Shown here one piece after another: positions 49,285 through 63,412 of a stretch of DNA of 64,000 nucleotides. The position numbers were made by a program, and so were the translations under genes. Position 1 is the stretch's first letter, and each line of letters begins with the position of its first letter. The stretch lies in IMG/VR virus record IMGVR_UViG_3300032053_000007. The stretch is one strand, 5' to 3'. The notes under the pieces are model-generated. The model ran no database searches. It saw only the letters and a program-made list of their open reading frames with translations, and was not told the DNA's origin. Source of the stretch: a virus (taxonomy: Duplodnaviria > Heunggongvirae > Uroviricota > Caudoviricetes).

Positions 49285-49300
49285 TTAATCAGGTGATTAA
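49285..49300. promoter_or_regulatory. TTAATCA-NN-TGATTAA palindrome on predicted TSS
   Basis: ttaatcaggtgattaa. Confidence 0.55.
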
Positions 49301-50996: not shown

Positions 50997-51232
50997 TAAA
51001 TTCAAACCGTAAAAAGTGTTGTATTTGCGGTAAAAAAGGTTATGCAAATTATCACGATATACAGACTGAGGAAAAACTTTATCTTTGCGACTCACATGGT
51101 ATTTTGTGGGAAAAATCACAAGAACGACATGACTTCTTTCACGATAGAAGAGATAATACTTGGGAGTCTTTTTTCAAAAAGTGGCTATTAAAACGCAAAG
51201 TAACAACAAAAGAGAAGGTCAATTTCACTTGA
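50993..51232 (+). CDS. zinc-ribbon VxFT-tail mini-protein (ZR-W-like)
   Basis: CCICGK..CDSHGILW; ends EKVNFT. Confidence 0.6.
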   Translation: MINSNRKKCCICGKKGYANYHDIQTEEKLYLCDSHGILWEKSQERHDFFHDRRDNTWESFFKKWLLKRKVTTKEKVNFT

Positions 51233-51456
51233 AAGAGAAAGGTTGCTTTAACTGTTCGAACAAGAGGAATCTCGACAAGATTTATTATAAATGCACAGAG
51301 ATGCGCTCACAACCTAACTTAACTGAACCGAACGGGAAAGCTACAGGATTTTTAAGGGACGTGAAAACTCCGTTAGGTAGTCCTAGACATTCTTATCGTT
51401 TAGGTTGTTCATGTGAGTATTGGAAGAGTGAACGGGAAACGGTTGAATTTACATGA
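51229..51456 (+). CDS. GCFNC family mini-protein
   Basis: trimmed to junction TTG; KGCFNC..YRLGCSC; ends ETVEFT. Confidence 0.6.
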   Translation: MKEKGCFNCSNKRNLDKIYYKCTEMRSQPNLTEPNGKATGFLRDVKTPLGSPRHSYRLGCSCEYWKSERETVEFT

Positions 51457-51695
51457 CAAAATTTAAAGGACGTTGTAGAAAATGCAAAAGAATAGTTAGC
51501 GGTCAATTTCCAATTAAACTATTATTGGCTGTTCTCTGCGAAAGTTGTAACGAAGAATGGAAGAGATATTTTTCAAAAAGGTTTGACAAAGAACATGGGA
51601 CGCTTTTAGGTTTTCATACGCCCATTGAAGAATGGGAAAAGGAAAAGTGGTTTAAGGATTTTCTCAACAGCAAAGAGAAGGTAGAGTTTACATGA
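51453..51695 (+). CDS. ZR-W family zinc-ribbon mini-protein
   Basis: CRKCK..CESCNEEW; ends EKVEFT. Confidence 0.65.
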   Translation: MTKFKGRCRKCKRIVSGQFPIKLLLAVLCESCNEEWKRYFSKRFDKEHGTLLGFHTPIEEWEKEKWFKDFLNSKEKVEFT

Positions 51696-51907
51696 TTCAA
51701 CTAACAAAAACCGATTATAATATTTGTATTTCATCAATAAGCTATTATAGTTGCACTAATTGTTGGAAAAACAGCCTAAAAGTTTATCGTTTGAAAGGAA
51801 AAGTACAAGAAAGAGGAAAAATTGGCATAACTTTAACGTGGCTCTGCCCTGACTGTTTCGAAAAAATCATCAAAAAGAAAGACATAGAACAGGTTCAATT
51901 TACATAA
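51692..51907 (+). CDS. zinc-ribbon VxFT-tail mini-protein
   Basis: CTNC..CPDC; ends EQVQFT with ACATAA (no start formed). Confidence 0.6.
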   Translation: MIQLTKTDYNICISSISYYSCTNCWKNSLKVYRLKGKVQERGKIGITLTWLCPDCFEKIIKKKDIEQVQFT

Positions 51908-51948
51908 ACCATAACCTTTATAAGCAACTTCTACTATTTTATCTTTAG

Positions 51949-52275
51949 ATGATTCAGATGCGATTAAAGTCTATTGGAAATTTTGACGTTGAAATAAAAG
52001 AGAAAACTGAATCACAAAAAAAGAGACAACGAGAACAAATAAAAATGTGGGGAAAAAAACACCCAGAGCGAACTAAAATGAAGAATGCAAAACGGCGAGA
52101 ATTAGGGTTTGACCCTTTTAATGGGAGATTTATTGGCTCTGTTGCTCATCATATAGATTTTGAATGTGTTATCTATATTCCCAGAGAACTTCATATTTCT
52201 ATTCATCATTGCGTTTGGACAGGTCAGGGTATGGCAGAAATAAATGATAAAGTTTTCGAATGGCTTACCACATAA
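51949..52275 (+). CDS. HNH-like protein (weak)
   Basis: VAHHIDFE..LHISIHH; TATA 51917; alternative ATG 51958. Confidence 0.4.
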   Translation: MIQMRLKSIGNFDVEIKEKTESQKKRQREQIKMWGKKHPERTKMKNAKRRELGFDPFNGRFIGSVAHHIDFECVIYIPRELHISIHHCVWTGQGMAEINDKVFEWLTT

Positions 52276-52305
52276 ACGTGGCGACAAGTGGTTTTTAGCG
52301 AATTT

Positions 52306-52321
52306 TTAATCAGTTGATTAA
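52306..52321. promoter_or_regulatory. TTAATCA-NN-TGATTAA palindrome
   Basis: ttaatcagttgattaa, 3 nt upstream of box. Confidence 0.55.
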
Positions 52322-52323
52322 CT

Positions 52324-52356
52324 CGAACATGGACGTTCTAGGCGAAACTTTATATA
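52324..52356 (+). promoter_or_regulatory. GAGCATGG-box/TATA promoter cassette
   Basis: cGAACATGGacgTTCT..TTTATATA; offset 24. Confidence 0.6.
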
Positions 52357-52370
52357 GCGCGCTGTACTGA

Positions 52371-52386
52371 TTAATCAGTTGATTAA
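52371..52386. promoter_or_regulatory. TTAATCA-NN-TGATTAA palindrome on predicted TSS
   Basis: ttaatcagttgattaa. Confidence 0.55.
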
Positions 52387-52398
52387 TTGGTGAACGCG

Positions 52399-52782
52399 AT
52401 GAACACGGAGAAAATTTACTTCGATAACGCTGAACTCGATGGAACAGCTTTGGCTTCTGGGACTATTTCAAGATATGATACTAAAATTACCAAAGTTATC
52501 TATTCCATTGACGGTATAATCGCTGATGATATTGGTGCTGAGTTGTTCGTTCACGAATTCAATGAAGTTGCAATTTATGAAGTATTGAATCGAATTCTTC
52601 CATACGAAAGTTTATCAGCTATTTCTCACAACTTGAACGCTGAAAGCGATAACGAGTATGTAGAAGAGAGAAACCTTTTACATGGTTATGTAAAGAGCGA
52701 TAGACTTCCAGCTATTGACAAAGTTTTCACACAACAAGAAACAGACGAGTTTAGGGCAAGAGCAAACAAACCTAGACGATAA
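52399..52782 (+). CDS. hypothetical protein (paralog of 401..802)
   Basis: trimmed to ATG 52399 after SD TGGTGA; FVHEFNEVAIYEVL. Confidence 0.55.
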   Translation: MNTEKIYFDNAELDGTALASGTISRYDTKITKVIYSIDGIIADDIGAELFVHEFNEVAIYEVLNRILPYESLSAISHNLNAESDNEYVEERNLLHGYVKSDRLPAIDKVFTQQETDEFRARANKPRR

Positions 52783-52783
52783 A

Positions 52784-52816
52784 CGAGCATGGACTTTTTC
52801 CCGAAACATTTATATA
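52784..52816 (+). promoter_or_regulatory. GAGCATGG-box/TATA promoter cassette
   Basis: cGAGCATGGactTTTT..TTTATATA; offset 24. Confidence 0.6.
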
Positions 52817-52837
52817 CTTGATTGACATCTGTAATAA

Positions 52838-53090
52838 CATGACGCACTCGCGTCTAACTAAAGGGCGCGTAAGACCGAAGGACGCACAACGTCCAAAAAC
52901 TTACCGACCCTTCAAAGTCGCTAGGGTTACGTTCGAAATAAGCGACAAGAACGGAACCGCACAAGACCGAAGGTTTGTCTCGCGGTAAAACGGGGCATTC
53001 CACCAACTTGTGCTTCAACTGACAAAAAAACCACAAACCACGTCCGAAAACGGGGCATGGCACACTCTCCATGCCCCCTCTCTCCTTTTT
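52838..53090 (+). other. promoter-to-terminator unit: GC-rich RNA or leaderless 49-aa basic ORF (52838..52987)
   Basis: ATG at predicted TSS; atypically GC-rich; repeats aagaccgaagg x2 and aaacggggcat x2; ends in hairpin plus T5. Confidence 0.35.
53052..53090 (+). terminator. hairpin plus T-run terminator
   Basis: ggggcatgg-cacactct-ccatgcccc ..ccttttt. Confidence 0.55.
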
Positions 53091-53122
53091 AAGTATGGTC
53101 TTTCTATGACAAGGTTTATATA
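53091..53122 (+). promoter_or_regulatory. GAGCATGG-box/TATA promoter cassette (variant box)
   Basis: aAGTATGGtctTTCT..TTTATATA; offset 24. Confidence 0.55.
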
Positions 53123-53144
53123 GGACGCAGACATATTACTTTTG

Positions 53145-53262
53145 GGTTCGTGCGGAACACTCTCAGATAGTCGGCGAGTTAATGAGCCATGAAAAACCGC
53201 TAGGGTATGGGAGTTAGGCGTGGGTAATGGCACTCACGGTGTATCAGCCACACGAACTCACT
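53145..53262 (+). ncRNA. candidate small RNA (about 120 nt)
   Basis: cassette-driven; no ORF over 11 aa; terminal 10-bp stem gttcgtgcgg / ccacacgaac. Confidence 0.4.
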
Positions 53263-53265
53263 AAT

Positions 53266-53298
53266 TGAATATGGTCTTTCTTAGCGAAAGTTTATATA
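53266..53298 (+). promoter_or_regulatory. GAGCATGG-box/TATA promoter cassette (variant box)
   Basis: tGAATATGGtctTTCT..TTTATATA; offset 24. Confidence 0.55.
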
Positions 53299-53319
53299 GT
53301 TGGGTGTGTATTATACTCT

Positions 53320-53436
53320 TCCGCACGTTGAAAAATCCTTATGCGGTGCGATACGACATAGGGCAAATTTCAACCTCTACATTAAATAAAACTAGGGTCA
53401 CGGCGAAACGCACTAGCCAAGACCCCCCTAAAATTT
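53320..53436 (+). ncRNA. candidate small RNA (about 115 nt)
   Basis: cassette-driven; no ORF over 6 aa before next cassette. Confidence 0.4.
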
Positions 53437-53469
53437 TGAGCACGTTCTTTCTTAGCAAACCTTTATATA
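53437..53469 (+). promoter_or_regulatory. GAGCATGG-box/TATA promoter cassette (variant box)
   Basis: tGAGCACGTtctTTCT..TTTATATA; offset 24. Confidence 0.6.
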
Positions 53470-53503
53470 GGACGGCGAACACTACATCTCAAAGGTTGAA
53501 ACT

Positions 53504-53893
53504 ATGAAATTGCAAGAACTTAGGGAAAAGTTGACATCGAAGGACGTTAAACCCTCAGAGTCATGGCTAGAAAATCAATATCCAGCACAACCATCTGAAC
53601 GATACTCTAAGCTAACATATTTGAACCTAGCGAACATTGAGGACAATTTCGGCAAAGAGGCAAAAGAACAACTAGAAAAATATCTTCTAAAGAACCCAGA
53701 AAAACGTGTCGTTGTTCTCGCGGAACTCACAGAGAAGGGCAATGTCAAAAAGCGACCCAGAATCTTCGTAGATTCAGGTGTTGGTTATGACAACTTTGCG
53801 TCATACTACGGAATCTATGAGCTATTCGCGTGTTCCGTTCACATGCACGGATTCATTGAAGTTTTCCAGAATATCAAAGACGGACAACAATAG
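53504..53893 (+). CDS. hypothetical protein
   Basis: track ORF. Confidence 0.6.
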   Translation: MKLQELREKLTSKDVKPSESWLENQYPAQPSERYSKLTYLNLANIEDNFGKEAKEQLEKYLLKNPEKRVVVLAELTEKGNVKKRPRIFVDSGVGYDNFASYYGIYELFACSVHMHGFIEVFQNIKDGQQ

Positions 53894-53904
53894 GTGACTG
53901 AGCA

Positions 53905-54252
53905 ATGAAGAACTTCCTAACATCAAAAGACAAATTCCCACCCGTCCATTGCAATGTTTTCCAAGACTATGACAGATTAGACGCGCTGGCAAAGAAACGG
54001 GGCTACCACGCTATTGAACTAGGAAATGACGACAAAATTACGACCCGTTCAGGCACAGGGCTTCAAAATGAACACCTTCATTCTGGATGGATAACAACTA
54101 TGGGTGAATCTGGAACAGACCCGAAAGCAATGACCGAATTGCTGAAAGACAAGATAAAAGAGTGCGAAACGCGCGGAGAAACCGTTATTATTGGCTTCTG
54201 CCAAACGGGATGGTTCTCAGTCGGATATACGCTTTACTTGAAGGACGCTTAA
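53905..54252 (+). CDS. hypothetical protein
   Basis: track ORF. Confidence 0.6.
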   Translation: MKNFLTSKDKFPPVHCNVFQDYDRLDALAKKRGYHAIELGNDDKITTRSGTGLQNEHLHSGWITTMGESGTDPKAMTELLKDKIKECETRGETVIIGFCQTGWFSVGYTLYLKDA

Positions 54253-54255
54253 GCC

Positions 54256-54435
54256 ATGATGGACAAAGAGTTTAAGGTCAAAATAACCCCTAAACAAGCT
54301 CGATACGTCATAAAGCTCTTGAAAGATGCCGTAAAGACGAAAAGACGCAAAAAACAGCAAAACATCGACAGCATTGAAATACTCGTCACGGACATCGACA
54401 TTCAGGTATCAACCGAGAACACACGATTTCTCTAA
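54256..54435 (+). CDS. small basic protein (59 aa), possible DNA binder
   Basis: below cutoff; KVKITPKQARYVIKLLKD strand-helix pattern (weak). Confidence 0.4.
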   Translation: MMDKEFKVKITPKQARYVIKLLKDAVKTKRRKKQQNIDSIEILVTDIDIQVSTENTRFL

Positions 54436-54450
54436 CCTTCTCTTTTTTTG
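54436..54450 (+). terminator. oligo-T terminator
   Basis: ccttctctttttttg. Confidence 0.5.
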
Positions 54451-54481
54451 TGCATGGACGTTCTACCACAATCTTTATATA
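54449..54481 (+). promoter_or_regulatory. GAGCATGG-box/TATA promoter cassette (variant box)
   Basis: tGTGCATGGacgTTCT..TTTATATA; offset 24; about 105-nt leader. Confidence 0.55.
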
Positions 54482-54608
54482 GCTGTTTGATTATTGTATT
54501 ACTCGTATGAGCACGGGAACAAGGTTTCCAAACTACGTCCTTAGCTGACGAGTGATGGACGCTTATTGGAGAATCGTCCGTGTTCCGCGCTAATCTAAGT
54601 GGTCTAAA

Positions 54609-54746
54609 ATGATAACACTAAAAACCGTGATTAAGAAAGTAAAAGAGAACGCTGGCATAATCATGGCATTTGCCCCGATAGCCTTTTTCGTAGTTGTAAT
54701 AGCTCTAATACTTTCTGGAATACTCAAAGTTCACATTGAATTTTGA
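54609..54746 (+). CDS. small TM protein (45 aa)
   Basis: hydrophobic core; TGA opens cassette 54744. Confidence 0.45.
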   Translation: MITLKTVIKKVKENAGIIMAFAPIAFFVVVIALILSGILKVHIEF

Positions 54747-54776
54747 GCATGGACGTTCTTAGGAAACCTTTATATA
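54744..54776 (+). promoter_or_regulatory. GAGCATGG-box/TATA promoter cassette
   Basis: tGAGCATGGacgTTCT..TTTATATA; offset 24. Confidence 0.65.
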
Positions 54777-54809
54777 GCTCGGTGTTGTTGTTATTATCAA
54801 GTGAACAAG

Positions 54810-55028
54810 ATGGTCAAGCAAAAAATAGGATTCTTTAAGTGGCTCTACACAAGAACCATCGAAGTCATACGTGACCCTCTAACCCAAAGTATAGGGGCAA
54901 TTCTGGGTGGAATTTTCATTTTCGCTTTTTCTGCTACTTTTGGTGCGCTATTCTCGCCTCTTCTATTTTTGGGTGTCCCTGTTGGAATATTGGTACTACT
55001 CTACGGAGTCTATAAAGTCGAACACTAG
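54810..55028 (+). CDS. small 2-TM membrane protein
   Basis: trimmed to ATG 54810. Confidence 0.55.
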   Translation: MVKQKIGFFKWLYTRTIEVIRDPLTQSIGAILGGIFIFAFSATFGALFSPLLFLGVPVGILVLLYGVYKVEH

Positions 55029-55031
55029 ATT

Positions 55032-55064
55032 CGAGCATGGTCTTTCTACCACAACCTTTATATA
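55032..55064 (+). promoter_or_regulatory. GAGCATGG-box/TATA promoter cassette
   Basis: cGAGCATGGtctTTCT..TTTATATA; offset 24; no CDS downstream. Confidence 0.6.
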
Positions 55065-56192: not shown

Positions 56193-56225
56193 CTTATAAA
56201 CGTTTGCCCAGAACGACCATGCTCG
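56193..56225 (-). promoter_or_regulatory. GAGCATGG-box/TATA promoter cassette (minus strand)
   Basis: reverse complement reads cGAGCATGGtcgTTCT..TTTATAAG; offset 24; no convincing CDS downstream. Confidence 0.5.
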
Positions 56226-56526: not shown

Positions 56527-56792
56527 ACCCGCCATTGCTGGCGCGAACGGGCTTCGAACTTGGTTGTACTTTGAGTTACATTGAATATACATCATGCGTT
56601 ACTATGTAATATACGCTTAACGCGAACAACTCCAACTCTCTCAAACATACGTTCTCAGCGCACTATATATACGTTTGCTTTTTCCTGTACGACACATCTA
56701 CAAGTCAATGGTCGAACTGTTGGTTTAAGCTACACTTTAATGGAAACGTTTATAAGAGAGGGTGCGAACGTTATTCTAAGGACGTGAAACAC

Positions 56793-57287
56793 TTGAACGA
56801 TAAGGACGAATTGACACGACTTGAAAACTTAGCGCAAAAACTAGGTTTTACCGTGATATATAATTTAACCCTTAGCTGGAATCATTCGAAGGTTTCCTTT
56901 TATCCATGTCGAAGAATCCTTATCGGAACTAAGAACTATTCACCAAATTCAAATATCGGTTATGGAACCATACCTGATAAGGTTAAAGCGTTAATTCTGA
57001 ATCACGAGCTAGGGCATATTGTCGTATATGAAACGCTTTACCCTAACATGGATTTAGCTGATTTTTGTCTCTCAAATGATTCAAAATTCTTGGTACAACA
57101 AGAGATGTACGCATGGAAAACCGCAATAAATGAATCGCTCGATGATAATTCTGACCCTCTAGTGTTGGAATTGATACAAGAATCGATAAACCAATACATT
57201 TATTGTGAGTATATCGGAACATGCACAATAGAATCTCAGCAAGAACTACAGCAAAAAATAATTACTAAGTTTACACGTACAAAATAG
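56793..57287 (+). CDS. small HExxH metallopeptidase-like protein
   Basis: LNHELGHIVVYE; TTG 56793 six nt after AAGGACGTG (track used GTG 56784). Confidence 0.55.
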   Translation: MNDKDELTRLENLAQKLGFTVIYNLTLSWNHSKVSFYPCRRILIGTKNYSPNSNIGYGTIPDKVKALILNHELGHIVVYETLYPNMDLADFCLSNDSKFLVQQEMYAWKTAINESLDDNSDPLVLELIQESINQYIYCEYIGTCTIESQQELQQKIITKFTRTK

Positions 57288-57340
57288 TACACAAAGGTTT
57301 ATTAAGGACGGTGCTATTATACTCTTAAGGACGTGGAAAG

Positions 57341-57634
57341 ATGGTCGAAATAAAAATCTATGTCGTAACAACGGAAAACCCAGATAAGACAAAACTAGAT
57401 TCTGTGAAAGTTCAACTATGCGGTGCATTCGGCGGTTTAACCGTCATTAATAACTGTGAGGGTCTATGGCTAGATAACGGAAAATTATACGCGGACAACG
57501 TACAGATTTGGCTCATAGAAAGTTCAACTGTGGTTTCTCCTGAACAAATAATGAAATATGGTGAAGACTTAAAGGCAATATGCAAACAAAAATCTCAAAT
57601 GATAAGCATAAACGGACACCCATATTTTGTTTGA
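57341..57634 (+). CDS. hypothetical protein
   Basis: own TATA, tatact initiator region, AAGGACGTG SD. Confidence 0.6.
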   Translation: MVEIKIYVVTTENPDKTKLDSVKVQLCGAFGGLTVINNCEGLWLDNGKLYADNVQIWLIESSTVVSPEQIMKYGEDLKAICKQKSQMISINGHPYFV

Positions 57635-57645
57635 AACAATTTCCC

Positions 57646-57655
57646 TCTTTTTTTG
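57646..57655 (+). terminator. oligo-T terminator
   Basis: ctctttttttg after stop 57634. Confidence 0.45.
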
Positions 57656-57708
57656 ATATAAACCTTTATATAGAACGCTGACATTATACTATTGAAGGAC
57701 GTGTGAAC

Positions 57709-58302
57709 GTGGAACACTTACAACTTAGCGCAATATGCGAACACTTAACACAACTAGAGGACACGGACGCGGAAGGACTCTTCGATTTAAGCCTAGAATC
57801 ACAAGTGCAGTTCTTAGAATTCTTTAAACACTATAAGGACTGTGAAAAAGGCAAGGCTAAAGGAAAGGGCTTTGGAAATTGCTGGAAATTGAATTCTAAG
57901 CGTAATCCTAACGTATTTACCCATTTAGAGGCACAATTTAAGAGATTAGTGGACGACTTTAACCTAGAGTTGAACCATGAGGTACGCATAAAAGTTAAGG
58001 ATAGGTGCAACCGCTGGCACATTTTCAAATTAGACTTCTTTGACCCTAAGACCCAAATTGACATAGAAATAAGCCCAAATTGGCACAAGAATTACCTTTT
58101 AGTCGTAAGACGTGACGCATTGCGTAGAAGGCTCTTAAAACGGGTCGGGATTCGAAGTCTAACGGTTCCTGTAGTATATAAGGGCAAACACGGACACATA
58201 GATTATATAAGAGCGAAACGAATAATAAAGATAATCAAAAGTGCAACCGTCAGCCCTAACTCACTAGACTACTATACAACTAATAAAGAGGTGAATGAAT
58301 AA
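57709..58302 (+). CDS. endonuclease-fold protein (DUF559/Vsr-like, weak)
   Basis: KLDFFDPKTQIDIEISPNWH resembles DF..(h)IE.DG..H core; GTG 57709 after AAGGACGTG. Confidence 0.4.
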   Translation: MEHLQLSAICEHLTQLEDTDAEGLFDLSLESQVQFLEFFKHYKDCEKGKAKGKGFGNCWKLNSKRNPNVFTHLEAQFKRLVDDFNLELNHEVRIKVKDRCNRWHIFKLDFFDPKTQIDIEISPNWHKNYLLVVRRDALRRRLLKRVGIRSLTVPVVYKGKHGHIDYIRAKRIIKIIKSATVSPNSLDYYTTNKEVNE

Positions 58303-58535
58303 TGGAATATTTCGGAAATTGTCCCAAATGCAGACACCACACGATAGTTAAATCCGTGAAGGCTATAAAAAGTGCAACTGCGAGACTACCACAGCGTACA
58401 AGCGAATGTATCAACTGCGGAACAACTGCAAGAATAACCATAATCGGCGAAATAGTTAAACTTGCAGGGATAACTAACGTGGTCAACCCAGAGTTTGCAA
58501 CGGTAAACAGACTTGTGGTGCGCCTGTGGAGTTAA
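58302..58535 (+). CDS. zinc-ribbon protein
   Basis: CPKCRHH..CINCGT; TAATG overlap. Confidence 0.55.
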   Translation: MEYFGNCPKCRHHTIVKSVKAIKSATARLPQRTSECINCGTTARITIIGEIVKLAGITNVVNPEFATVNRLVVRLWS

Positions 58536-58537
58536 AC

Positions 58538-58577
58538 CACCGTGACATGCACGGTGCAACTTTCCCTTCTTTTTTTA
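58538..58577 (+). terminator. hairpin plus T-run terminator
   Basis: caccgtg-acatg-cacggtg ..cttcttttttt. Confidence 0.55.
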
Positions 58578-58642
58578 GTACAACTTTCTATTAACTGAAA
58601 ACTTAGCGAATTTTTAATTTTCTTCCCTGTTCGAATATTGTC

Positions 58643-58762
58643 TTCGATTCACCACAATGACGTGCTATTGAACCATACTCTCCATTGTGATGAATTTGTG
58701 TCCCACTTCGAGGTATGGTCTTTTCCCATGCTTTTCTTCGAATGTTGACTTCGATTCATCAC
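58643..58762. repeat. TTCGATTCAYCAC iteron-like repeats with hairpin
   Basis: ttcgattcaccac 58643, gtgatgaat 58687 (inverted), ttcgattcatcac 58750; related set at 59592-59780. Confidence 0.5.
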
Positions 58763-58830
58763 GAATTTTGGAAACATTGTTGGCATGGATGGAACGGTAC
58801 GGCGGAGCCGTGCGGCGAACTTAGCATTTT

Positions 58831-58846
58831 TTAATCAACTGATTAA
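58831..58846. promoter_or_regulatory. TTAATCA-NN-TGATTAA palindrome
   Basis: ttaatcaactgattaa, 20 nt upstream of TATA 58867. Confidence 0.55.
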
Positions 58847-58909
58847 CTCAGGACTGAGTAGGAATGTTTATAAGACTCGATGCTATTATACTCTTAAGGA
58901 CGTGGAATA

Positions 58910-59170
58910 ATGGCAAGAATCTTTAAAGTGAATGAAACCACAGAAATACTCTGTGAATTTGTGAGCACAAGAAGCGGTTTTAGACATGATGCAAGGCTGT
59001 TCAAAAATGGCAATGAATACGAAAAGGCTAAAGTATGCTACGTAAACAGAACATGGGAGAAATTTGACTTCGAAACCGTCATACATAAACTGCTAGAAAA
59101 GACGGACGCTTTGACCGAAACAGAAAAAGAGCAATTCAGAACCGAATTAAACAACAAATACGGCTATTAA
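58910..59170 (+). CDS. hypothetical protein
   Basis: TATA 58867, AAGGACGTG SD. Confidence 0.6.
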   Translation: MARIFKVNETTEILCEFVSTRSGFRHDARLFKNGNEYEKAKVCYVNRTWEKFDFETVIHKLLEKTDALTETEKEQFRTELNNKYGY

Positions 59171-59206
59171 CCCCCCTACCCCCTTTTTGTTTTTTTGGTG
59201 ATAATC

Positions 59207-59308
59207 ATGGAACAAAAAAGACGAATTCGGACACAACCGAAATTAAAAGGAAATCTCGGCAAACTGTTTAATAAGCGATTTTTTGAACTGCTCGAACAGA
59301 ACCGATAA
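59207..59308 (+). CDS. basic mini-protein (33 aa)
   Basis: SD TGGTGATAATC-ATG; flanked by T-run terminators. Confidence 0.4.
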   Translation: MEQKRRIRTQPKLKGNLGKLFNKRFFELLEQNR

Positions 59309-59445
59309 AACTCCCTCTTTTTTTGACTTGCAAACTTAGCGGAAAAACAAATTTTAACTTAATATATACCTATGTGCGTTACACCCCAGACAGTTACCCC
59401 CAGAAGTTCAACTTTCGGTTGACCACAACCTTTATATAGGTCGCC

Positions 59446-59497
59446 ATACCGAAACGTTTATATACTACCCTATACCGAAACCCTTATATACTACCTA
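59446..59497 (+). repeat. two 26-bp tandem repeats each carrying a TATA box
   Basis: ataccgaaacSYttatatactaccYt x2. Confidence 0.55.
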
Positions 59498-59591
59498 TTT
59501 GACTTCATAGTTCCTGTTCTAACCATACAACACCGTCACTTATAAACCTTCCTATTTAACTGTTCAACAATAATACAGTTAGTACATTGTG

Positions 59592-59780
59592 TTCGATTCA
59601 TCACAACGATGAGAGCGAAAATTTCGTTCGAGAAAATATACATGAAAACACCATAGTACGAGTAACCACTTCGAAAACACACATATGGGGCAATAAAAAG
59701 ACCATTGTGGTGAATCGTAGCCAATTTCGAAGCATGGGAAAAGCATGGTAAATTCTCGAATCGTGACTTCGATTCACCAC
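59592..59780. repeat. TTCGATTCAYCAC iteron-like repeats (second set)
   Basis: 59592 (+), 59707 (inverted), 59768 (+); central ttcgaagcatgggaaaagcatgg resembles reverse complement of 58716-58752. Confidence 0.5.
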
Positions 59781-60024
59781 GCATAGGAACAAAAGTTCAC
59801 CGTGAGTTCAACTGTGGGTGACATTCAATTCAAGTGATGCGTGTCCATGTAATATACGCTTAACGCGAGGCTCTGGTTATGAACGTGGGCACGGGACTAT
59901 TTAAACGTTTGCTTTTAACTGTTTAACGTGACTACACATGACCATATAAACTGTATATTTGACCTACACTTTAAAGCCAACCTTTAAATACTACGTTCGA
60001 CACGTTACCTAATGGTGAACAAGG

Positions 60025-60498
60025 ATGCCAATAAAAACCGTGGAATTTGTCTTATATCTCTCGGACGTTGTAAACTTAGGCTTTTCAGAATTGACGATTC
60101 AAAAAATTAAGCAGAGATTGATAGACCACTTTTCATTTGGTACGAATTTACCAGAGAATTACGTTGTAATTTATCCTCATATTGTAGCGTTTGAGATGCA
60201 CAACGAGGATAAAATTGTTCGCAAATTTAACTATACAGTTCTGCATGAATTGATACACGGATTACTTGAAGAGAGTGAACTTAATACAGAAGAGATGTGC
60301 CACGCTTGGAGTATGATACTAACCGATGACCGTGAATCAAATGTAAGCGGTCAAGGACACCACTATTATCAAATGTTAAAAGGACGAACAGAAATCGTTG
60401 TAAACGAAGAACCCAAATTCGAGGCGGAAAAGCTAAACGCGGCGCGGAATTTGTCCAGAATGCGATTAGTGAAACACCATGAGCTAACAGGACTTTAA
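60025..60498 (+). CDS. small HExxH metallopeptidase-like protein
   Basis: VLHELIHGLLEE. Confidence 0.55.
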   Translation: MPIKTVEFVLYLSDVVNLGFSELTIQKIKQRLIDHFSFGTNLPENYVVIYPHIVAFEMHNEDKIVRKFNYTVLHELIHGLLEESELNTEEMCHAWSMILTDDRESNVSGQGHHYYQMLKGRTEIVVNEEPKFEAEKLNAARNLSRMRLVKHHELTGL

Positions 60499-60581
60499 AC
60501 CGCGAAGTATATAAACCTTCTGGTTTTACCCAAACCTTTATTAATGACCGTGCTATATTATATCTCAAGGATGTTGAAAAA

Positions 60582-60884
60582 ATGGCAAACGTATTTAGTG
60601 TTAAACACTACGTAAAAATTGCCGAGCTAATAGGCAAGGCAAAAGACTTAGACGAATTTTACAGATTTTTCGTAAAGTTCGCACAAGCCGAAAACCCAAA
60701 ATTCTCTATTGAGAAGTTCTATAAAGCGGTTCAGAAAAGCCACCAATTCGGCGGAATCGGGTGCGGTGCGCCCGAATTAGCCGAGAAACCCCAAAAAGAG
60801 TGGGAATTTCCTCAAGAGGCTATAGAATCGGACGGTCAACCTGACGAAGCCCAAGAATGGCACGATTTCGACCCTGACGCTTAA
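60582..60884 (+). CDS. hypothetical protein
   Basis: own TATA (tttattaa); track ORF. Confidence 0.6.
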   Translation: MANVFSVKHYVKIAELIGKAKDLDEFYRFFVKFAQAENPKFSIEKFYKAVQKSHQFGGIGCGAPELAEKPQKEWEFPQEAIESDGQPDEAQEWHDFDPDA

Positions 60885-60901
60885 AGCGTCCCTCTTTTTT
60901 T
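60876..60901 (+). terminator. hairpin plus T-run terminator
   Basis: gacgc-ttaaa-gcgtc cctcttttttt (overlaps stop). Confidence 0.55.
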
Positions 60902-60992
60902 ATCCATAACATGTAACATAACATGTTTTCCATGCTTTGACCATGCCTGACATGACATAAAGGTTTATATAAGTCGGTTGATATAGTAGTAC

Positions 60993-61166
60993 ATGGCGAG
61001 AAAAATGAACACACACAACAACACACAAGTAAAAACTCATGTCGGGACTTTTCAAGTGAAATACCACCGTGACGGCGGAAAAGTCGGCAGTACGAGCGTG
61101 ATTATCCGAAAGAAGCTCGTTTATGAACCCTATGACATTTTAGCCTATAAATTCGGAGCAAAATAA
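60993..61166 (+). CDS. hypothetical small protein (57 aa), leaderless
   Basis: ATG 22 nt after TATA 60964-60971. Confidence 0.45.
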   Translation: MARKMNTHNNTQVKTHVGTFQVKYHRDGGKVGSTSVIIRKKLVYEPYDILAYKFGAK

Positions 61167-61168
61167 AA

Positions 61169-61291
61169 ATGCCAAAAACTTGTTTAGGAAATTTGACTCG
61201 TGACTGTTCTGGGACATGTCCAGATTATCAGGAATGCCTTAAAAAATACATGGACATGGAAATAAGAACGTCAGAACATAACAGAGATTAA
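61169..61291 (+). CDS. Cys-rich mini-protein (40 aa)
   Basis: C..C..C..C; ATG 2 nt after previous stop. Confidence 0.4.
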   Translation: MPKTCLGNLTRDCSGTCPDYQECLKKYMDMEIRTSEHNRD

Positions 61292-61522
61292 TGCAACCGA
61301 GGCGGTTCACGGGAAGTTTAACTTTAAGTTGGTTTCTAATCATGGTATCCGTGTCCATGTAATATCCCGTTTTTTCTCGCGCTGAGGTTGTCGCCCTCAA
61401 TAGTAACGTGTGCATCGAGGTATATAAACGTTTGCTTTCAAGTGTAGAACAGGACTACAGTTTAGCTACACAACAACGTTTATAAGTCACGGTGATATAA
61501 TATAGTTAAGGACGTGTGTGAC

Positions 61523-62035
61523 ATGGACGCATTAAAAAAAGCTCTTGCGGTTAAGCGTAAAATGATTCACCCAGAACGACAAAATTTTTGTCTAAACAAA
61601 CTTAGTGAATTCTCGAAACGCTTAATATTAGGAATTCAAGACACACCTTATATTTTGCTTCCTGACCAAAAACAAACCTATTCTATCGATTTGAACCTTA
61701 AGCAATGCCGAAAAGCTAAACGGGACGGTTTACAGAACGTAATTCGTGCATCATGGTCAAATCTGCCTTTTAGAAATAAAAGCGAATTTGATATTATTTA
61801 TGCTGATAATTTCGGCGATAGAAAAGACATTAACGAAATAGCGCACGAAGTAAATCGACTGAAAACCAAAAAGCTCATCGTTTTAGGTGCGGCTAGAGCA
61901 TTCAGGAAGCCAGCGAAGCGTAAATGGAAATATCTGCTCAAAACGAGGTTCCCTAAGCTAAAGCTCCAAGAATTACGGAAGGACGGCGGTTATTGTTCCA
62001 CGGTGCAATGGACAGCAATACTGTATAAGCGTTGA
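61523..62035 (+). CDS. hypothetical protein
   Basis: trimmed to ATG 61523 after AAGGACGTG; NLPFRNKSEFDIIYAD only weakly methyltransferase-like. Confidence 0.55.
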   Translation: MDALKKALAVKRKMIHPERQNFCLNKLSEFSKRLILGIQDTPYILLPDQKQTYSIDLNLKQCRKAKRDGLQNVIRASWSNLPFRNKSEFDIIYADNFGDRKDINEIAHEVNRLKTKKLIVLGAARAFRKPAKRKWKYLLKTRFPKLKLQELRKDGGYCSTVQWTAILYKR

Positions 62036-62091
62036 ACACTTAAATAGGAACGTTTATATAGCTCGCCGCATACGTTACTATTGGTGAAAAA

Positions 62092-62223
62092 ATGACCAAC
62101 AACAAAAAGCCCAAAAAGTTGAGCACGGAAGACTTTAACGCGATATTTGACGCGATAAGGAACACGGAAAAACACCCAAAAATAAAATTCTCATGTCGAA
62201 CGTTCAGAGGAGTCAGGGACTAA
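62092..62223 (+). CDS. hypothetical mini-protein (43 aa)
   Basis: TATA 62053, SD TGGTGA, T-run after stop. Confidence 0.45.
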   Translation: MTNNKKPKKLSTEDFNAIFDAIRNTEKHPKIKFSCRTFRGVRD

Positions 62224-62310
62224 AACCCTTTTTCTTTTGTAGTTCTGTTGTACACTTGAATCGAAAGGTATATAAGGAACGGTGTACACATACTATTGAG
62301 GGAAAAACTC

Positions 62311-62538
62311 ATGGCAAGGACAATAAGGGTTAACGTGGTTGTGTGCTACAGAAATAGGCTTACAAGAATGTTTAAAAACGTTGAACTTGACATAACACAC
62401 ATAAACGAACTTAATAACCGTAACATGTCAAGAGCGTTCGAAGAACAATACCCTAAACTCGTGGCAAAAATCCCAACGTGGACGGACAACCGAGGGTTTA
62501 CTTTTAGGGCTAACTTCGAATGTGAACCGCTCTACTAA
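62311..62538 (+). CDS. hypothetical protein
   Basis: trimmed to ATG 62311; TATA 62266; T-run after stop. Confidence 0.55.
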   Translation: MARTIRVNVVVCYRNRLTRMFKNVELDITHINELNNRNMSRAFEEQYPKLVAKIPTWTDNRGFTFRANFECEPLY

Positions 62539-62758
62539 AACCCCAATTTTTTGTGTATTTCTGTTCTACAGTTAAAAGCGAAGGTTTAAATAGGTCGGCG
62601 ATATACTATATTTGTCGAGCGCGGGACTCGGCGGCGCGAGCTATCGGATATTACATGGGCACGGACGGCAAGAATCCACCGAAACGTTTATAAGCAACCG
62701 CCTCACCAGAACCTTTATAAGTCTCTGTGCTATACTATTCTATAAGGACTGTGAAAAC

Positions 62759-63052
62759 ATGATAGACATGAATAAGGTCAGTATGGCGTTAACTCTAACA
62801 AACGCGAAGTTAAACGCTCTCTCAACAGAAAAATACAACACACTAAAAGCCTCTGTTGACGTACCACTTGAACCGCTGGAAATAGTGAAATATCAGAATC
62901 TAAAAGCTATCGCCCAAATAGAACAGAAAATTTCACTCGAAGTTGCACTCTGGATATACACGGCAATTGAGCATTGGGCAAAAACGACACTAGGAGAAAA
63001 AATTCTGATAACTCAAATGATAGCTGGCTGGGCTGGGATTCTTCGCAAATAA
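62759..63052 (+). CDS. hypothetical protein
   Basis: track ORF 62612.. trimmed: its 5-prime part covers two TATA boxes and a GC-rich hairpin. Confidence 0.55.
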   Translation: MIDMNKVSMALTLTNAKLNALSTEKYNTLKASVDVPLEPLEIVKYQNLKAIAQIEQKISLEVALWIYTAIEHWAKTTLGEKILITQMIAGWAGILRK

Positions 63053-63141
63053 ACCCTTTCTTTTCTGTATTATTGTTCTACAGTCAAAAGCAAACGTTTA
63101 AATACCTCTCTGAACATATACTATTATTGGTGAAAAGCGCA

Positions 63142-63288
63142 ATGAGAAACCGAAAAAGAGAATTTAGTTATGAAGAGCAACCTAGACAAATAGCTCTAGC
63201 ATTTGAACGTGAGCTATTGATAATCTGCGCTCAAGTAGAACAAGCCGAAAAAATCGAAGCACAAAAAAGACGAGGTTATCAAGTATGA
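63142..63288 (+). CDS. hypothetical mini-protein (48 aa)
   Basis: track ORF 62974.. trimmed to ATG 63142 after TATA 63097 and SD TGGTGA. Confidence 0.45.
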   Translation: MRNRKREFSYEEQPRQIALAFERELLIICAQVEQAEKIEAQKRRGYQV

Positions 63289-63377
63289 GCGAATTACTAA
63301 TAGCTCTCTTAGGCATCTTTTCAGCGTGGTTTATCTCTGACCAACTGATACAGAACGTAGGCAAAAAGAAAAAGTAA
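63285..63377 (+). CDS. TM mini-protein (30 aa)
   Basis: ATGA overlap; LLIALLGIFSAWFI. Confidence 0.4.
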   Translation: MSELLIALLGIFSAWFISDQLIQNVGKKKK

Positions 63378-63393
63378 GAGGGCTTCAATACAG

Positions 63394-63412
63394 CACGGGC
63401 TAATTGCCCGTG
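63394..63412 (+). terminator. terminator-like hairpin
   Basis: cacgggc-taatt-gcccgtg. Confidence 0.4.

What the first reader, a model, noticed from the sequence alone, without database searches (positions are those of the whole stretch)
56590..63412. The right arm uses a different gene grammar: monocistronic units without the GAGCATGG box, an AAGGACGTG SD and T-run terminators
From about 56.8 kb onward, genes 56793, 57341, 57709, 58910, 60025, 60582, 60993, 61523, 62092, 62311, 62759 and 63142 each have their own promoter. The pattern is a TATA, about 10 nt, (gct)aTtATACT, and then mostly (t)AAGGACGTG or TGGTGA followed by 5-6 nt before the start. None of them has the upstream box.

Most of these genes are followed by ccctcttttttt-type terminators. 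No gene here carries the V-x-F-T tail.

The contrast with the polycistronic, box-dependent left 55 kb suggests either two temporal classes (box-dependent versus host-type constitutive) or a mosaic of two ancestries.
Basis: seen in the sequence. Interest (0 to 1): 0.55.

Follow-up and report, generated by a model that had tools for sequence, protein, structure and literature searches.

The report
Box-less single-gene cassettes, archaeal virus
The right end of this window is a variable array of small stand-alone genes in a large uncultivated archaeal-type virus, and they use the same core promoter as the rest of the genome but lack its upstream control box, so they are probably a separately regulated (perhaps early) gene class rather than foreign DNA.

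Summary
In 56.7-63.4 kb, 16 small ORFs sit in 12 units. Each unit has its own BRE/TATA element 29-45 nt before the start codon. None has the GAGCATGG-N3-TTCT box, which lies exactly 24 nt upstream of the TATA in 29 promoters between 1 and 55 kb (Fisher p=3e-7). Eight of the 12 units end in a C-rich T-run.

The "different grammar" is narrower than claimed. A matrix trained only on box promoters scores the right-arm promoters equally well over BRE/TATA and the 18 nt downstream. Only the upstream 24 nt differ. T-run terminators also close left-arm operons.

AAGGACGTG sits at the predicted transcript 5' end, 5-6 nt before the start. It equals the canonical AAGGAGGTG with one G changed, and GGAGG is absent from both strands of 73 kb.

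Both arms share total avoidance of GATC, CCGG, GGCC, GGAGG, CCWGG and other sites. Distant relatives keep box promoters beside right-arm homologues. A recent mosaic is therefore unlikely.

Cassettes are gained, lost and reordered between relatives. The best reading is a box-independent accessory cassette array, resembling the early/anti-defence single-gene regulons of Sulfolobales viruses. Expression timing is untested.

The parts
56749..57287 (+). Unit 1. TATA 56749-56756, AAGGACGTG 56778-56786, ORF 56793-57287 (164 aa, TTG start). The protein is a small HExxH...E zinc-peptidase-like protein. There is no T-run after the ORF.
57298..57654 (+). Unit 2. TATA-like TTTATTAA 57298-57305, AAGGACGTG 57327-57335, ORF 57341-57634 (97 aa), terminator ccctc-T7 with the T-run at 57648-57654.
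57665..58576 (+). Unit 3 (bicistronic). TATA 57665-57672, AAGGACGTG 57695-57703, ORF 57709-58302 (197 aa, GTG start). ORF 58302-58535 (77 aa, CxxC zinc ribbon) shares one base with it. T7 at 58570-58576.
   Evidence: The same gene pair is coupled in the distant relative L109.
58867..59324 (+). Unit 4. TATA 58867-58874, AAGGACGTG 58896-58904, ORF 58910-59170 (86 aa), T-runs at 59185-59196. Then a GGTGA-led 33-aa ORF at 59207-59308 and T7 at 59318-59324. This is the site of a 2-kb cassette indel between strains.
   Evidence: L006, L007, L014 and L015 carry about 2 kb of extra cassettes between two paralogous 86-aa genes, at window 58863/59058. The 33-aa ORF is conserved in L021.
59983..60498 (+). 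Unit 5. TATA 59983-59990, TGGTGA 60013-60018, ORF 60025-60498 (157 aa, HELIH motif). No T-run.
   Evidence: No detectable homology to the unit 1 protein apart from HExxH.
60537..60901 (+). Unit 6. TTTATTAA 60537-60544, AAGGATGTTG 60567-60576, ORF 60582-60884 (100 aa), hairpin plus ccctc-T7 with the T-run at 60895-60901.
   Evidence: 83% identical protein in L021.
60964..61291 (+). Unit 7 (bicistronic). TATA 60964-60971. The first ORF, 60993-61166 (57 aa), starts 29 nt from the TATA start, so it is predicted to be leaderless. Second ORF 61169-61291 (40 aa). Inverted box-like CCATGCTT/CCATGCCT copies lie upstream at 60926-60946.
   Evidence: (I24).
61479..62035 (+). Unit 8. TATA 61479-61486, AAGGACGTG 61508-61516, ORF 61523-62035 (170 aa).
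   Evidence: Only two homologues were found among 5.8 billion proteins.
62053..62240 (+). Unit 9. TATA 62053-62060, TTGGTGA leader, ORF 62092-62223 (43 aa), T5CT4 terminator.
62268..62552 (+). Unit 10. GTATATAA 62268-62275, GAGGGA leader, ORF 62311-62538 (75 aa), T6 at 62547-62552.
   Evidence: The homologue sits at a different position in L021.
62585..62700 (+). Promoter with no ORF. TATA 62585-62592, then a roughly 75-nt unit carrying the conserved motif ATATTACATGGGCACGG at 62648-62664.
   Evidence: The unit is conserved in L021 5990-6085. No common fold was found.
62714..63070 (+). Unit 11. TATA 62714-62721, AAGGACTGTG 62744-62753, ORF 62759-63052 (97 aa), a weak T-rich terminator.
   Evidence: This segment is absent from strain L003.
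63097..63377 (+). Unit 12 (bicistronic). TATA 63097-63104, TTGGTGA leader, ORFs 63142-63288 (48 aa) and 63285-63377 (30 aa, ATGA overlap).
56552..56748 (-). Divergent-promoter module 1. A minus-strand TATA (plus-strand TATATATACGTTTGC, 56664-56678) lies back to back with the unit 1 promoter. A degenerate ATATTACAT motif lies downstream on the minus strand.
   Evidence: (D5, D6, D7, D12, I10).
59795..59982 (-). Divergent-promoter module 2. Minus-strand TATA (plus-strand 59898-59912) and the motif ATATTACATGGACACGC (plus-strand 59839-59855).
61305..61478 (-). Divergent-promoter module 3. Minus-strand TATA (plus-strand 61421-61435) and the motif ATATTACATGGACACGG (plus-strand 61349-61365).
56193..56224 (-). 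A complete box-class promoter on the minus strand at the left edge of the arm. Box at 56224-56217, TATA at 56200-56193, 24-nt offset, reading leftwards.
   Evidence: Conserved with a perfect TTGAGCATGGTCTTTCT in the distant relative L109.
961..55064 (+). Reference set for the contrast. 29 box promoters (tTGAGCATGG-N3-TTCT-N9-TTTAWAWR) head tightly coupled operons. The first box is at 961 and the last TATA at 55057-55064.

Best explanation
The window is part of a metagenomic contig of at least 152 kb, from an uncultivated virus or virus-like element whose expression signals are of the archaeal type.

The 56.7-63.4 kb stretch is a variable array of small, mostly orphan genes. Each gene or gene pair is an autonomous module with four parts:
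- a purine-rich BRE plus a TTTAWAWR TATA box;
- a conserved CGnTG and a TATACT-like block;
- a predicted transcript start about 30 nt from the TATA start, falling at the beginning of a ribosome-binding sequence that lies 5-6 nt before the start codon;
- usually a C-rich oligo-T terminator with no hairpin.

This core is the same one that drives the long, translationally coupled operons of the left 55 kb. The only systematic difference is that the operon promoters carry tTGAGCATGG-N3-TTCT exactly 24 nt upstream of the TATA box.

I infer that the box is the binding site of a sequence-specific regulator. An activator is the more likely kind, because the site lies upstream of BRE/TATA rather than over it. 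On this reading the operons form one co-regulated class, and the right-arm cassettes are read by the basal machinery alone. That would make them an independent class, probably immediate-early or constitutive, of accessory functions such as host takeover or anti-defence.

AAGGACGTG is best read as the closest permitted version of the canonical AAGGAGGTG, because GGAGG is one of many short sites this genome excludes completely.

Shown: the anatomy, the shared core, the shared site avoidance and the cassette turnover. Inferred: the archaeal host, the transcript starts, the role of the box and the timing.
For: Source of the sequence:
- The window equals positions 14168-78167 of ENA contig ERZ27247916:k141_6238898, which is 151,756 bp long.

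Archaeal-type signals:
- TATA to start distances are 38-47 nt, or 29-32 nt for apparently leaderless genes.
- A is present at -3 and -4 of the BRE in all 13 right-arm promoters.
- Sigma-70-type promoters are not enriched: 14 found against 20.6 +/- 5.4 in shuffles. Only one hairpin terminator follows a gene on the coding strand.
- A KaiC protein matches TIGR03878 (thermo_KaiC_2) at 2e-32.
- Pfam DUF7417 and DUF7569 are also hit, families I believe are archaeal.

Same core promoter. A matrix trained only on box promoters gives these medians:
- BRE+TATA: right arm 14.8, box promoters left-one-out 15.2, genome 99.9th percentile 10.1.
- Positions +9..+26: right arm 5.9 against 5.4.
- Positions -30..-7: right arm -29.5 against +24.2.

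Box position:
- The offset is 24 nt in all 29 plus-strand and both minus-strand copies.
- The box and its offset are conserved in a relative with about 46% protein identity.

Cassette autonomy and turnover:
- A 2-kb indel lies between paralogous 86-aa genes.
- Segments are missing or replaced in L003.
- Gene order is permuted in L021 and L109, while each gene keeps its own promoter.
- The intergenic modules are repeated in both orientations.

Shared history of the two arms:
- 22 short words are absent from both strands of 73 kb. About 105 occurrences are expected in the right arm alone.
- The same avoidance holds in all relatives.

Ribosome-binding site:
- GGAGG/CCTCC occurs 0 times against about 69 expected.
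- AAGGACGUG pairs with a generic 16S tail at -8.0 kcal/mol, against -6.9 for GGUGA.
- Relatives use AAGGACGYTG, GAGGAT or GGTGA at the same position.

Precedent:
- Early and anti-defence genes of Sulfolobales viruses are small single genes that share a conserved regulatory sequence around a strong BRE/TTTAWATA promoter (PMC11065993).
Against: - There are no expression data, so the transcript starts, the termination sites and the timing are all predictions.
- BRE/TATA quality is equal in the two classes. The box is therefore not obviously compensating for a weak core, and it could equally be an operator for a repressor.
- The host is unknown and no capsid or terminase gene was identified in the roughly 83 kb examined, so 'virus' is itself provisional.
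- Codon usage, GC3, tetranucleotide content and GC skew do differ between the arms.
- Four units are bicistronic and four lack a T-run.
- Box-like CATGG elements occur inside the right arm at non-canonical positions (58.73, 59.74, 60.93 kb). The ATATTACATGGRCACGG motif shares CATGGAC with the box. The arm may therefore not be fully independent of the box-binding factor.
- The AAGGACG motif could be an initiator or other promoter element rather than, or as well as, a ribosome-binding site.
Confidence: 0.6

Rival explanations
1. Immunity or maintenance region of a temperate or carrier-state element. The box is an operator through which a repressor silences the large operons. The box-less right-arm cassettes are the constitutively expressed maintenance or moron genes, not early lytic genes.
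For: - BRE/TATA strength is equal in the two classes, so the box need not be an activator site.
- Unit 1 encodes an ImmA/IrrE/BlaR1-like zinc peptidase fold. To my knowledge that class cleaves repressors in other mobile elements.
- The palindrome TTAATCA-NN-TGATTAA overlaps several transcript-start regions and looks like a separate operator.
Against: - As far as I know, archaeal repressor sites usually overlap BRE/TATA or the transcript start. This box ends 16 nt upstream of the TATA.
- No integrase or recognisable repressor was found.
- Complete avoidance of many restriction sites is, in my judgement, more typical of an element that repeatedly enters new cells unmodified.
Confidence: 0.2
2. 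Mosaic of two ancestries. The right arm was acquired recently from a different element and keeps the donor's gene organisation.
For: - The RSCU distance of right versus left is 4.42. Contiguous left-arm blocks of the same size give 3.17 +/- 0.55, putting the right arm in the top 1.4%.
- GC3 is 0.406 against 0.352.
- The tetranucleotide correlation is 0.82, against at least 0.90 for left-arm blocks.
- GC skew drops from about +0.15 to about 0.
- One 86-kb assembly of the same element ends at about window 56.2 kb.
Against: - The core promoter is the same by a matrix trained on the other arm.
- The terminator type is the same.
- Both arms completely avoid the same 22 short words, with about 105 occurrences expected in the right arm.
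- The skew and GC change begins at about 52 kb, inside the box-promoter region, not at the arm boundary.
- L109 and L110, at 42-46% protein identity, already combine coupled genes and box promoters with right-arm homologues.
- About a third of the right arm is non-coding, which inflates the k-mer difference.
Confidence: 0.1
3. The box is not a promoter element but an RNA-level or end-of-operon signal (processing, termination or insulation). On this reading the arms differ only in operon length, with no regulatory meaning.
For: - In several cases the upstream gene's TGA stop lies inside tTGAGCATGG (ORF ends at 962, 3078 and 6519 against boxes at 961, 3077 and 6518).
- At 54443 a T7 run directly precedes the box.
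Against: - The spacing is fixed relative to the downstream TATA (24 nt in 31 of 31 copies), not relative to the upstream stop codon.
- Minus-strand copies at 42.09 and 56.2 kb have their own TATA and no upstream gene.
- The box is conserved with the same offset in L109.
Confidence: 0.05
4. A bacteriophage whose TTTATATA-type promoters are read by a phage-encoded RNA polymerase or sigma factor. The classes would then reflect phage polymerase specificity rather than archaeal basal factors.
For: - Ribosome-binding sites and coupled operons are also bacterial features.
- The extended promoter conservation (about 30 nt) is, in my judgement, stronger than usual for host-read archaeal promoters.
- The host has not been identified.
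Against: - No RNA polymerase or sigma factor was found among 118 proteins screened.
- There is no DNA or protein match in 50,697 phage records.
- The terminators lack hairpins.
- The KaiC family hit is an archaeal one.
- Leaderless starts lie exactly 29-32 nt from the TATA.
Confidence: 0.05

Closest known systems
Early-gene / anti-defence regulons of Sulfolobales viruses (SIRV2, SIFV2, SMV and others; Nat Commun 2024, PMC11065993)
   Same: - Clusters of small genes, mostly single and mostly unannotated.
- Each gene is preceded by a highly similar regulatory sequence built around a purine-rich BRE and a TTTAWATA box.
- The gene sequences themselves are unrelated to one another.
- The genes are accessory and vary between relatives.
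   Different: - Here the conserved core is not specific to the cassettes. The operon promoters have the same core, and the classes differ by the presence or absence of an upstream box.
- The transcripts are predicted to carry a short leader with a ribosome-binding site, rather than being leaderless.
- The element is at least 152 kb, unrelated in sequence, and found in freshwater and sediment metagenomes.
- Its position relative to the genome ends is unknown.
- Early expression and anti-defence activity are untested.
Morons and hyperplastic early regions of tailed phages (lambdoid morons; T4 early-gene regions). Recalled from general knowledge, not tested here.
   Same: - Autonomous promoter-gene-terminator units.
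- The units are inserted, lost and shuffled between related genomes.
- They encode small orphan proteins.
- Their composition differs modestly from the neighbouring genes.
   Different: - The signals are archaeal-type BRE/TATA promoters and oligo-T terminators, not sigma-70 promoters and hairpin terminators.
Activator-dependent promoter classes, such as the T4 middle promoters with a MotA box (my recollection) and archaeal upstream activators such as Sta1 on SIRV1 promoters (PMC1635249)
   Same: - A short conserved box at a fixed distance upstream of the core promoter marks one co-regulated class.
- Another class is read by the unmodified host machinery.
   Different: - No binding protein has been identified.
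- Whether the box activates or represses is unknown.
- As I recall, the MotA box replaces the -35 element, whereas this box is added upstream of an intact BRE/TATA.
Intergenic repeats carrying promoters in halovirus HF2 (PMC8707807)
   Same: - Repeated intergenic modules of 30-60 nt that contain the promoters.
- More than one repeat class occurs in a single archaeal virus genome.
   Different: - The sequences, the host group and the genome organisation are all different.
- Here the classes are segregated by region and by operon type.

Membership tests
Archaeal TBP/TFB-type (BRE/TATA) promoter | An 8-bp TTTAWATA-like TATA box | tested here: met
   12 of 13 right-arm promoters match TTTAWAWR or TTTATTAA, and one is GTATATAA. 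The class I-trained BRE+TATA matrix gives a median of 14.8, against a genome 99.9th percentile of 10.1.
Archaeal TBP/TFB-type (BRE/TATA) promoter | A purine-rich BRE directly upstream of the TATA, with A at -3 | tested here: met
   A is present at -3 and -4 in 13 of 13 right-arm promoters. The stated TFB preference is taken from PMC11065993.
Archaeal TBP/TFB-type (BRE/TATA) promoter | A transcript start about 22-27 nt downstream of the TATA box | not testable with these tools
   There are no RNA data. Indirect evidence only: apparently leaderless ORFs begin 29-32 nt from the TATA start (60993, 33563, 51949), and leadered ones begin at 38-47 nt.
Archaeal TBP/TFB-type (BRE/TATA) promoter | An archaeal host | tested here: inconclusive
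   The KaiC protein hits the archaeal family TIGR03878 at 2e-32. One perfect box promoter occurs in a Bathyarchaeia MAG, but 5 hits across GTDB is near my rough estimate of chance, and the MAG region shares no proteins with this element.
Early / anti-defence regulon of archaeal viruses (criteria of PMC11065993) | Single genes not in operons | tested here: met
   12 units hold 16 ORFs. The median intergenic gap is +84 nt, against -4 nt in the left arm.
Early / anti-defence regulon of archaeal viruses (criteria of PMC11065993) | A regulatory sequence shared around a strong promoter within the same genome | tested here: met
   Repeat families D3, D4, D11 and D17 are 24-57 nt long at 63-87% identity. 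Caveat: the core is also shared with the operon promoters.
Early / anti-defence regulon of archaeal viruses (criteria of PMC11065993) | Expression immediately after infection | not testable with these tools
   There is no cultured host and no transcriptome.
Early / anti-defence regulon of archaeal viruses (criteria of PMC11065993) | Anti-defence activity of the products | not tested
Moron-like autonomous cassette | Its own promoter and its own terminator | tested here: met
   12 of 12 units have a promoter and 8 of 12 have a T-run.
Moron-like autonomous cassette | Presence/absence or position differences between related genomes | tested here: met
   A 2-kb indel at 58863/59058, loss of 62600-63048 in L003, and permuted gene order in L021 and L109.
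Recently acquired foreign segment (mosaic) | An oligonucleotide signature distinct from the recipient's | tested here: not met
   All 22 words excluded from the genome are also absent from the right arm, where about 105 occurrences are expected. Only a modest codon and k-mer shift is seen.
Shine-Dalgarno ribosome-binding site (for AAGGACGTG) | Complementarity to the 3' tail of the host 16S rRNA | tested here: inconclusive
   8 of 9 bases pair with a generic ...CACCUCCUU tail, at -8.0 kcal/mol. The host rRNA is unknown.
Shine-Dalgarno ribosome-binding site (for AAGGACGTG) | A fixed short spacing to the start codon | tested here: met
   The spacing is 5-6 nt in all 5 exact copies and both variants.
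Bacterial intrinsic terminator | A GC-rich hairpin immediately followed by a U-tract | tested here: not met
   Only 60876-60901 qualifies on the coding strand. In total 10 were found against 6.6 +/- 2.7 in shuffles.

The most novel reading that the evidence does not exclude
The GAGCATGG-N3-TTCT box is the site of an activator encoded by the element, perhaps among the box-less cassettes. Through it, one factor would switch on about 30 operons (more than 50 kb) of a large archaeal virus. That would be a genome-wide early-to-late cascade built by adding or omitting a single upstream element on one universal core promoter. The promoter grammar alone would then identify the immediate-early (anti-defence or takeover) gene set of an uncultivated archaeal virus lineage. 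The ribosome-binding sites of that gene set have, in addition, been reshaped by total avoidance of restriction sites.
Probability: 0.3. Interest if true: 0.7.

Novelty: new variant of a known kind. Interest (0 to 1): 0.5.

Why it matters
If the box-less cassettes are an early class, promoter anatomy alone would pick out candidate host-takeover and anti-defence genes in a large archaeal-type virus lineage. That lineage has no cultured member and almost no annotated proteins.

The box gives a concrete, testable handle on activator- or repressor-controlled transcription in archaea. It sits at a fixed 24-nt offset in 31 copies and is conserved in distant relatives.

The link between site avoidance and the ribosome-binding site shows how pressure from host restriction systems can reshape translation signals.

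Tried and rejected
- DNA similarity to 50,697 phage and archaeal-virus records: no match for either arm. Protein searches with KaiC and the 575-aa ORF also found nothing.
- IMG/VR scans with the 575-aa protein and two box+TATA patterns: nothing.
- GTDB scan with box+TATA: 5 single hits, close to my rough estimate of chance. The Bathyarchaeia hit is a perfect promoter, but the region shares no proteins with this element.
- The one JGI metagenome scan, seeded with the 100-aa protein of unit 6, was swamped by a widespread C-terminal motif. It returned no true relatives.
- Rfam on 52-64 kb: only one sub-threshold chance hit. No tRNAs.
- Folding of the small ATATTACATGG units: no common structure.
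- RNAalifold of the 300-nt CGAAC-rich element: -12 kcal/mol with 3 covarying pairs, so it is not convincingly an RNA.
- Paralogy of the two HExxH proteins is not supported by BLASTP. The second has no sequence relative among PDB entries.
- I first took T-runs to be depleted on the coding strand. Allowing for base composition, they are not. What differs between the arms is their placement after stop codons.
- Searching papers for the sample accessions found nothing.
- The published Bathyarchaeia virus families showed no link in a term search of the paper.

Full report
**Where the sequence comes from.** Exact-protein look-ups place the window on ENA metagenome contig ERZ27247916:k141_6238898, which is 151,756 bp long. 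Window position equals record position minus 14,167. Locus L005 continues the same contig 9 kb past the window end, and I used window plus extension (73,052 nt) for genome-wide statistics. Nearly identical strains and more distant relatives occur in other ENA, JGI and Logan assemblies. Nothing similar exists in 50,697 deposited phage and archaeal-virus genomes or in IMG/VR.

Almost all genes are on the plus strand and most are tiny. Recognisable domains include a KaiC/RadA-like ATPase that hits the archaeal family TIGR03878 at 2e-32. Others are Band 7, MoxR-type AAA, glycosyltransferases, an RNA ligase, Lar, DUF7417 and DUF7569. A glycosylation cluster lies upstream of the window. dCMP deaminase and ribonucleotide reductase lie downstream. 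No capsid gene was recognised, so "virus" is provisional.

The box GAGCATGG-N3-TTCT occurs at exactly 24 nt from box start to TATA start in 29 plus-strand promoters between 961 and 55,057. It occurs in none between 56,590 and 63,412, and reappears at 70,778. That is 29 of 36 promoters against 0 of 13, p=3e-7.

AAGGACGTG has five exact plus-strand copies, all in 56,778-61,516 and all 5-6 nt before a start codon. T-runs follow 8 of 16 right-arm ORFs against 15 of 175 left-arm ORFs, p=9e-5. [VI]xF[TS] tails end 68 of 175 left-arm ORFs and 0 of 16 right-arm ORFs. The median intergenic gap is -4 nt in the left arm and +84 nt in the right.

- Four coupled second ORFs start at 58302, 59207, 61169 and 63285.
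- A promoter at 62585 has no ORF.
- Three minus-strand promoters sit in repeated divergent modules.
- A full minus-strand box promoter lies at 56,193-56,224.

**The signals look archaeal.** The TATA to start distances fit a transcript start about 30 nt from the TATA start. Apparently leaderless ORFs begin at 29-32 nt, and leadered ones at 38-47 nt with the ribosome-binding sequence at the very 5' end. Sigma-70-type promoters are not enriched (14 found against 20.6 +/- 5.4 in shuffles). Only one of the terminators has a hairpin. These points, together with the KaiC family hit, make an archaeal host the working assumption. They do not prove it.

**The grammar difference is narrower than claimed.** I trained a position matrix on the 29 box promoters only and scored the 13 right-arm promoters with it.

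| Region scored | Right arm (median) | Box promoters, left-one-out (median) | Genome reference |
|---|---|---|---|
| BRE+TATA | 14.8 | 15.2 | 99.9th percentile 10.1 |
| +9..+26 after the TATA start | 5.9 | 5.4 | 99th percentile 3.4 |
| -30..-7 | -29.5 | +24.2 | 99.9th percentile 3.0 |

A right-arm promoter is therefore a box promoter without the box. A third flavour, aACCgyAAcc-TTTAAATA followed by a pyrimidine-rich stretch, scores -2.0 over the downstream part. It occurs at 44, 12,989, 14,747, 46,907 and 51,917, and repeatedly between 65.6 and 70.6 kb. The genome thus has at least three promoter classes.

The ccctc-T7 terminator also closes left-arm operons at 32,463, 35,126 and 54,443. First genes of left-arm operons carry AAGGT... 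at the same distance from the TATA as AAGGACGTG.

**What AAGGACGTG is.** GGAGG and CCTCC are both absent from 73 kb, where about 69 occurrences are expected. They belong to a set of 22 short words with zero occurrences on either strand. The set includes GATC (248 expected), CCGG, GGCC, CASTG, CCWGG, CGWCG, GCWGC, AAGCTT, ACTAGT, AGTACT, GATATC and GTATAC. Absence on both strands points to selection at the DNA level, most simply restriction avoidance.

The canonical AAGGAGGTGATC therefore contains two forbidden words. AAGGACGTG is that sequence with the central G changed, and the left arm's GTGATT avoids GATC. AAGGACGUG still pairs with a generic 16S tail at -8.0 kcal/mol, against -6.9 for GGUGA.

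Relatives keep a motif at the same position but vary it: AAGGACGYTG in L021, and GAGGAT, GGTGA or AAGGTGTG in L109 and L110. The position is therefore under selection, not merely duplicated. Because the motif coincides with the predicted transcript start, a role as an initiator element cannot be separated from a ribosome-binding role.

**Mosaic or regulatory class?** The arms do differ in composition:
- The RSCU distance is 4.42, against 3.17 +/- 0.55 for contiguous left-arm blocks of equal size (top 1.4%).
- GC3 is 0.406 against 0.352.
- The tetranucleotide correlation is 0.82, against at least 0.90 for left-arm blocks.
- GC skew falls from about +0.15 to about 0.

Three observations argue against a recent mosaic. 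The skew change starts near 52 kb, inside the box-promoter region. About a third of the right arm is non-coding. The right arm lacks all 22 forbidden words, although about 105 occurrences are expected there.

All relatives share the core of that avoidance profile. L109, at about 46% protein identity, has coupled genes with V-x-F-T-like tails, a box promoter at the same 24-nt offset and a perfect minus-strand TTGAGCATGGTCTTTCT. All of these lie directly beside homologues of 57341, 57709, 58302 and 56793. The two-part architecture is therefore old, and a recent chimera is unlikely.

**The arm is a cassette array.**
- Strains L006, L007, L014 and L015 carry about 2 kb of extra units between two paralogous 86-aa genes, and the window has the recombined single copy.
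- L003 lacks 62,600-63,048, and segments around 59.6-60.4 kb differ.
- L021 and L109 have the same genes in different orders, each with its own promoter.
- The intergenic DNA is built from a few repeated modules in both orientations. One is a terminator-plus-promoter junction with four copies of 54 nt. Another is a divergent-promoter block of about 230 nt at three sites. These modules could provide the homology for shuffling.

**Comparison with what is known.** The closest described system is the early/anti-defence regulon of Sulfolobales viruses. There, small single genes share a conserved regulatory sequence around a strong BRE/TTTAWATA promoter and are expressed immediately after infection (PMC11065993). 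The sequence-level criteria are met here: single genes, a strong promoter and a shared flanking sequence. Timing and function are untested.

The differences are these:
- The core promoter is universal in this genome, and the classes are set by an added upstream box.
- Leaders carry a ribosome-binding site.
- The element is far larger and unrelated in sequence.

Upstream activation of archaeal viral promoters has a precedent in Sta1 (PMC1635249). Promoter-bearing intergenic repeat classes have one in halovirus HF2 (PMC8707807). Morons and the T4 early regions are functional analogues from general knowledge.

**Verdict.** The temporal or regulatory-class reading is the best-supported explanation but rests on inference. 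The mosaic reading is disfavoured. The feature is a new variant of a known kind and is of moderate interest. Its main value is as a sequence-only handle on the regulatory programme of an uncultivated archaeal-type virus.

Noticed in passing
whole window plus L005 extension; also L001, L003, L014, L017, L021, L022, L109, L110: GATC, CCGG, GGCC, GGAGG/CCTCC, CCWGG and GCWGC are completely absent from both strands. In the closer clade CASTG, CGWCG, AAGCTT, ACTAGT, AGTACT, GATATC and GTATAC are absent too. GATC alone is expected 248 times in 73 kb.
   Followed up: yes
window 1-55900: 68 of 175 ORFs end in [VI]xF[TS], and 55 overlap the next gene by ATGA. The tail appears to be a by-product of a conserved coupling sequence of the type AGGTGcaaTTCACATGA, which combines ribosome-binding site, stop and start.
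   Followed up: partly
window about 20990, 33445, 41735, 42635, 47350, 49285, 52375, 55815, 58830; L109 728; L014 4775: The palindrome TTAATCA-NN-TGATTAA recurs between the TATA and the start codon or just after T-runs. It looks like an operator for a dimeric DNA-binding protein and is separate from the GAGCATGG box.
   Followed up: no
window 56250-56600 and 42235-42560; L003 7315-7665 and 11250-11600; L109 1400-1740: A conserved non-coding element of about 300 nt. It has islands of CGAAC/TTCGAA, TATCGTT and an invariant AGGACTG...CAGTCCT pair. In the window each copy lies beside a minus-strand box promoter. Support for an RNA structure is weak, so it could be a protein-binding array (origin or partition site?).
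   Followed up: partly
window 55990-56200, 59424-59550, 63568-63790; L021 6700-7000: Arrays of 3-5 TATA-like elements (aaccCTTATATActa) at 26-58 nt spacing. Some face each other, and they are not followed by ORFs. They are conserved in a relative of about 73% identity. Several assemblies break in or near them.
   Followed up: partly
window 62648-62664 (+), 61349-61365 (-), 59839-59855 (-); further copies in L014 and L021: The conserved 17-mer ATATTACATGGRCACGG lies about 35 nt downstream of the predicted start of small promoter units that have no conserved ORF. It shares CATGGAC with the box. No common fold was found.
   Followed up: partly
window 52800-56700: An ORF-poor stretch with near-zero or negative GC skew. 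It holds several box promoters (TATA at 52809, 53115, 53291, 54474, 55057) with no obvious ORF downstream, so they may drive non-coding transcripts.
   Followed up: no
L027 4237-4270 (GTDB: Candidatus Bathyarchaeia MAG SPRUCE_357, JBEKKX010000005.1): One perfect box promoter, TTGAGCATGGggtTTCTcggcgAAggTTTATATG, lies upstream of a 209-aa ORF. The 8-kb region also has 0 GATC, where 29 are expected. It shares no proteins with the window. This is a weak lead to a possible host or a host factor.
   Followed up: partly
window 60582-60884 (C-terminus): The C-terminal motif GQPDEAQEWHDFDPDA recurs at the ends of unrelated small ORFs in hundreds of freshwater and marine metagenome contigs (306 confirmed among the first 600 pattern matches).
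   Followed up: no
L014 4170-4470; L021 715-1140: A promoter-driven non-coding stretch of 300-400 nt, with a conserved ...caaggacgagggacaattagccc-N-taacaa-N-gggacaattagccttctgacaca. It is present in strains that carry the 2-kb insertion and absent from the window.
   Followed up: no
L109 1139-1429: An HNH-type endonuclease ORF sits beside the 300-nt conserved element in the distant relative. The window has no gene at that place.
   Followed up: no
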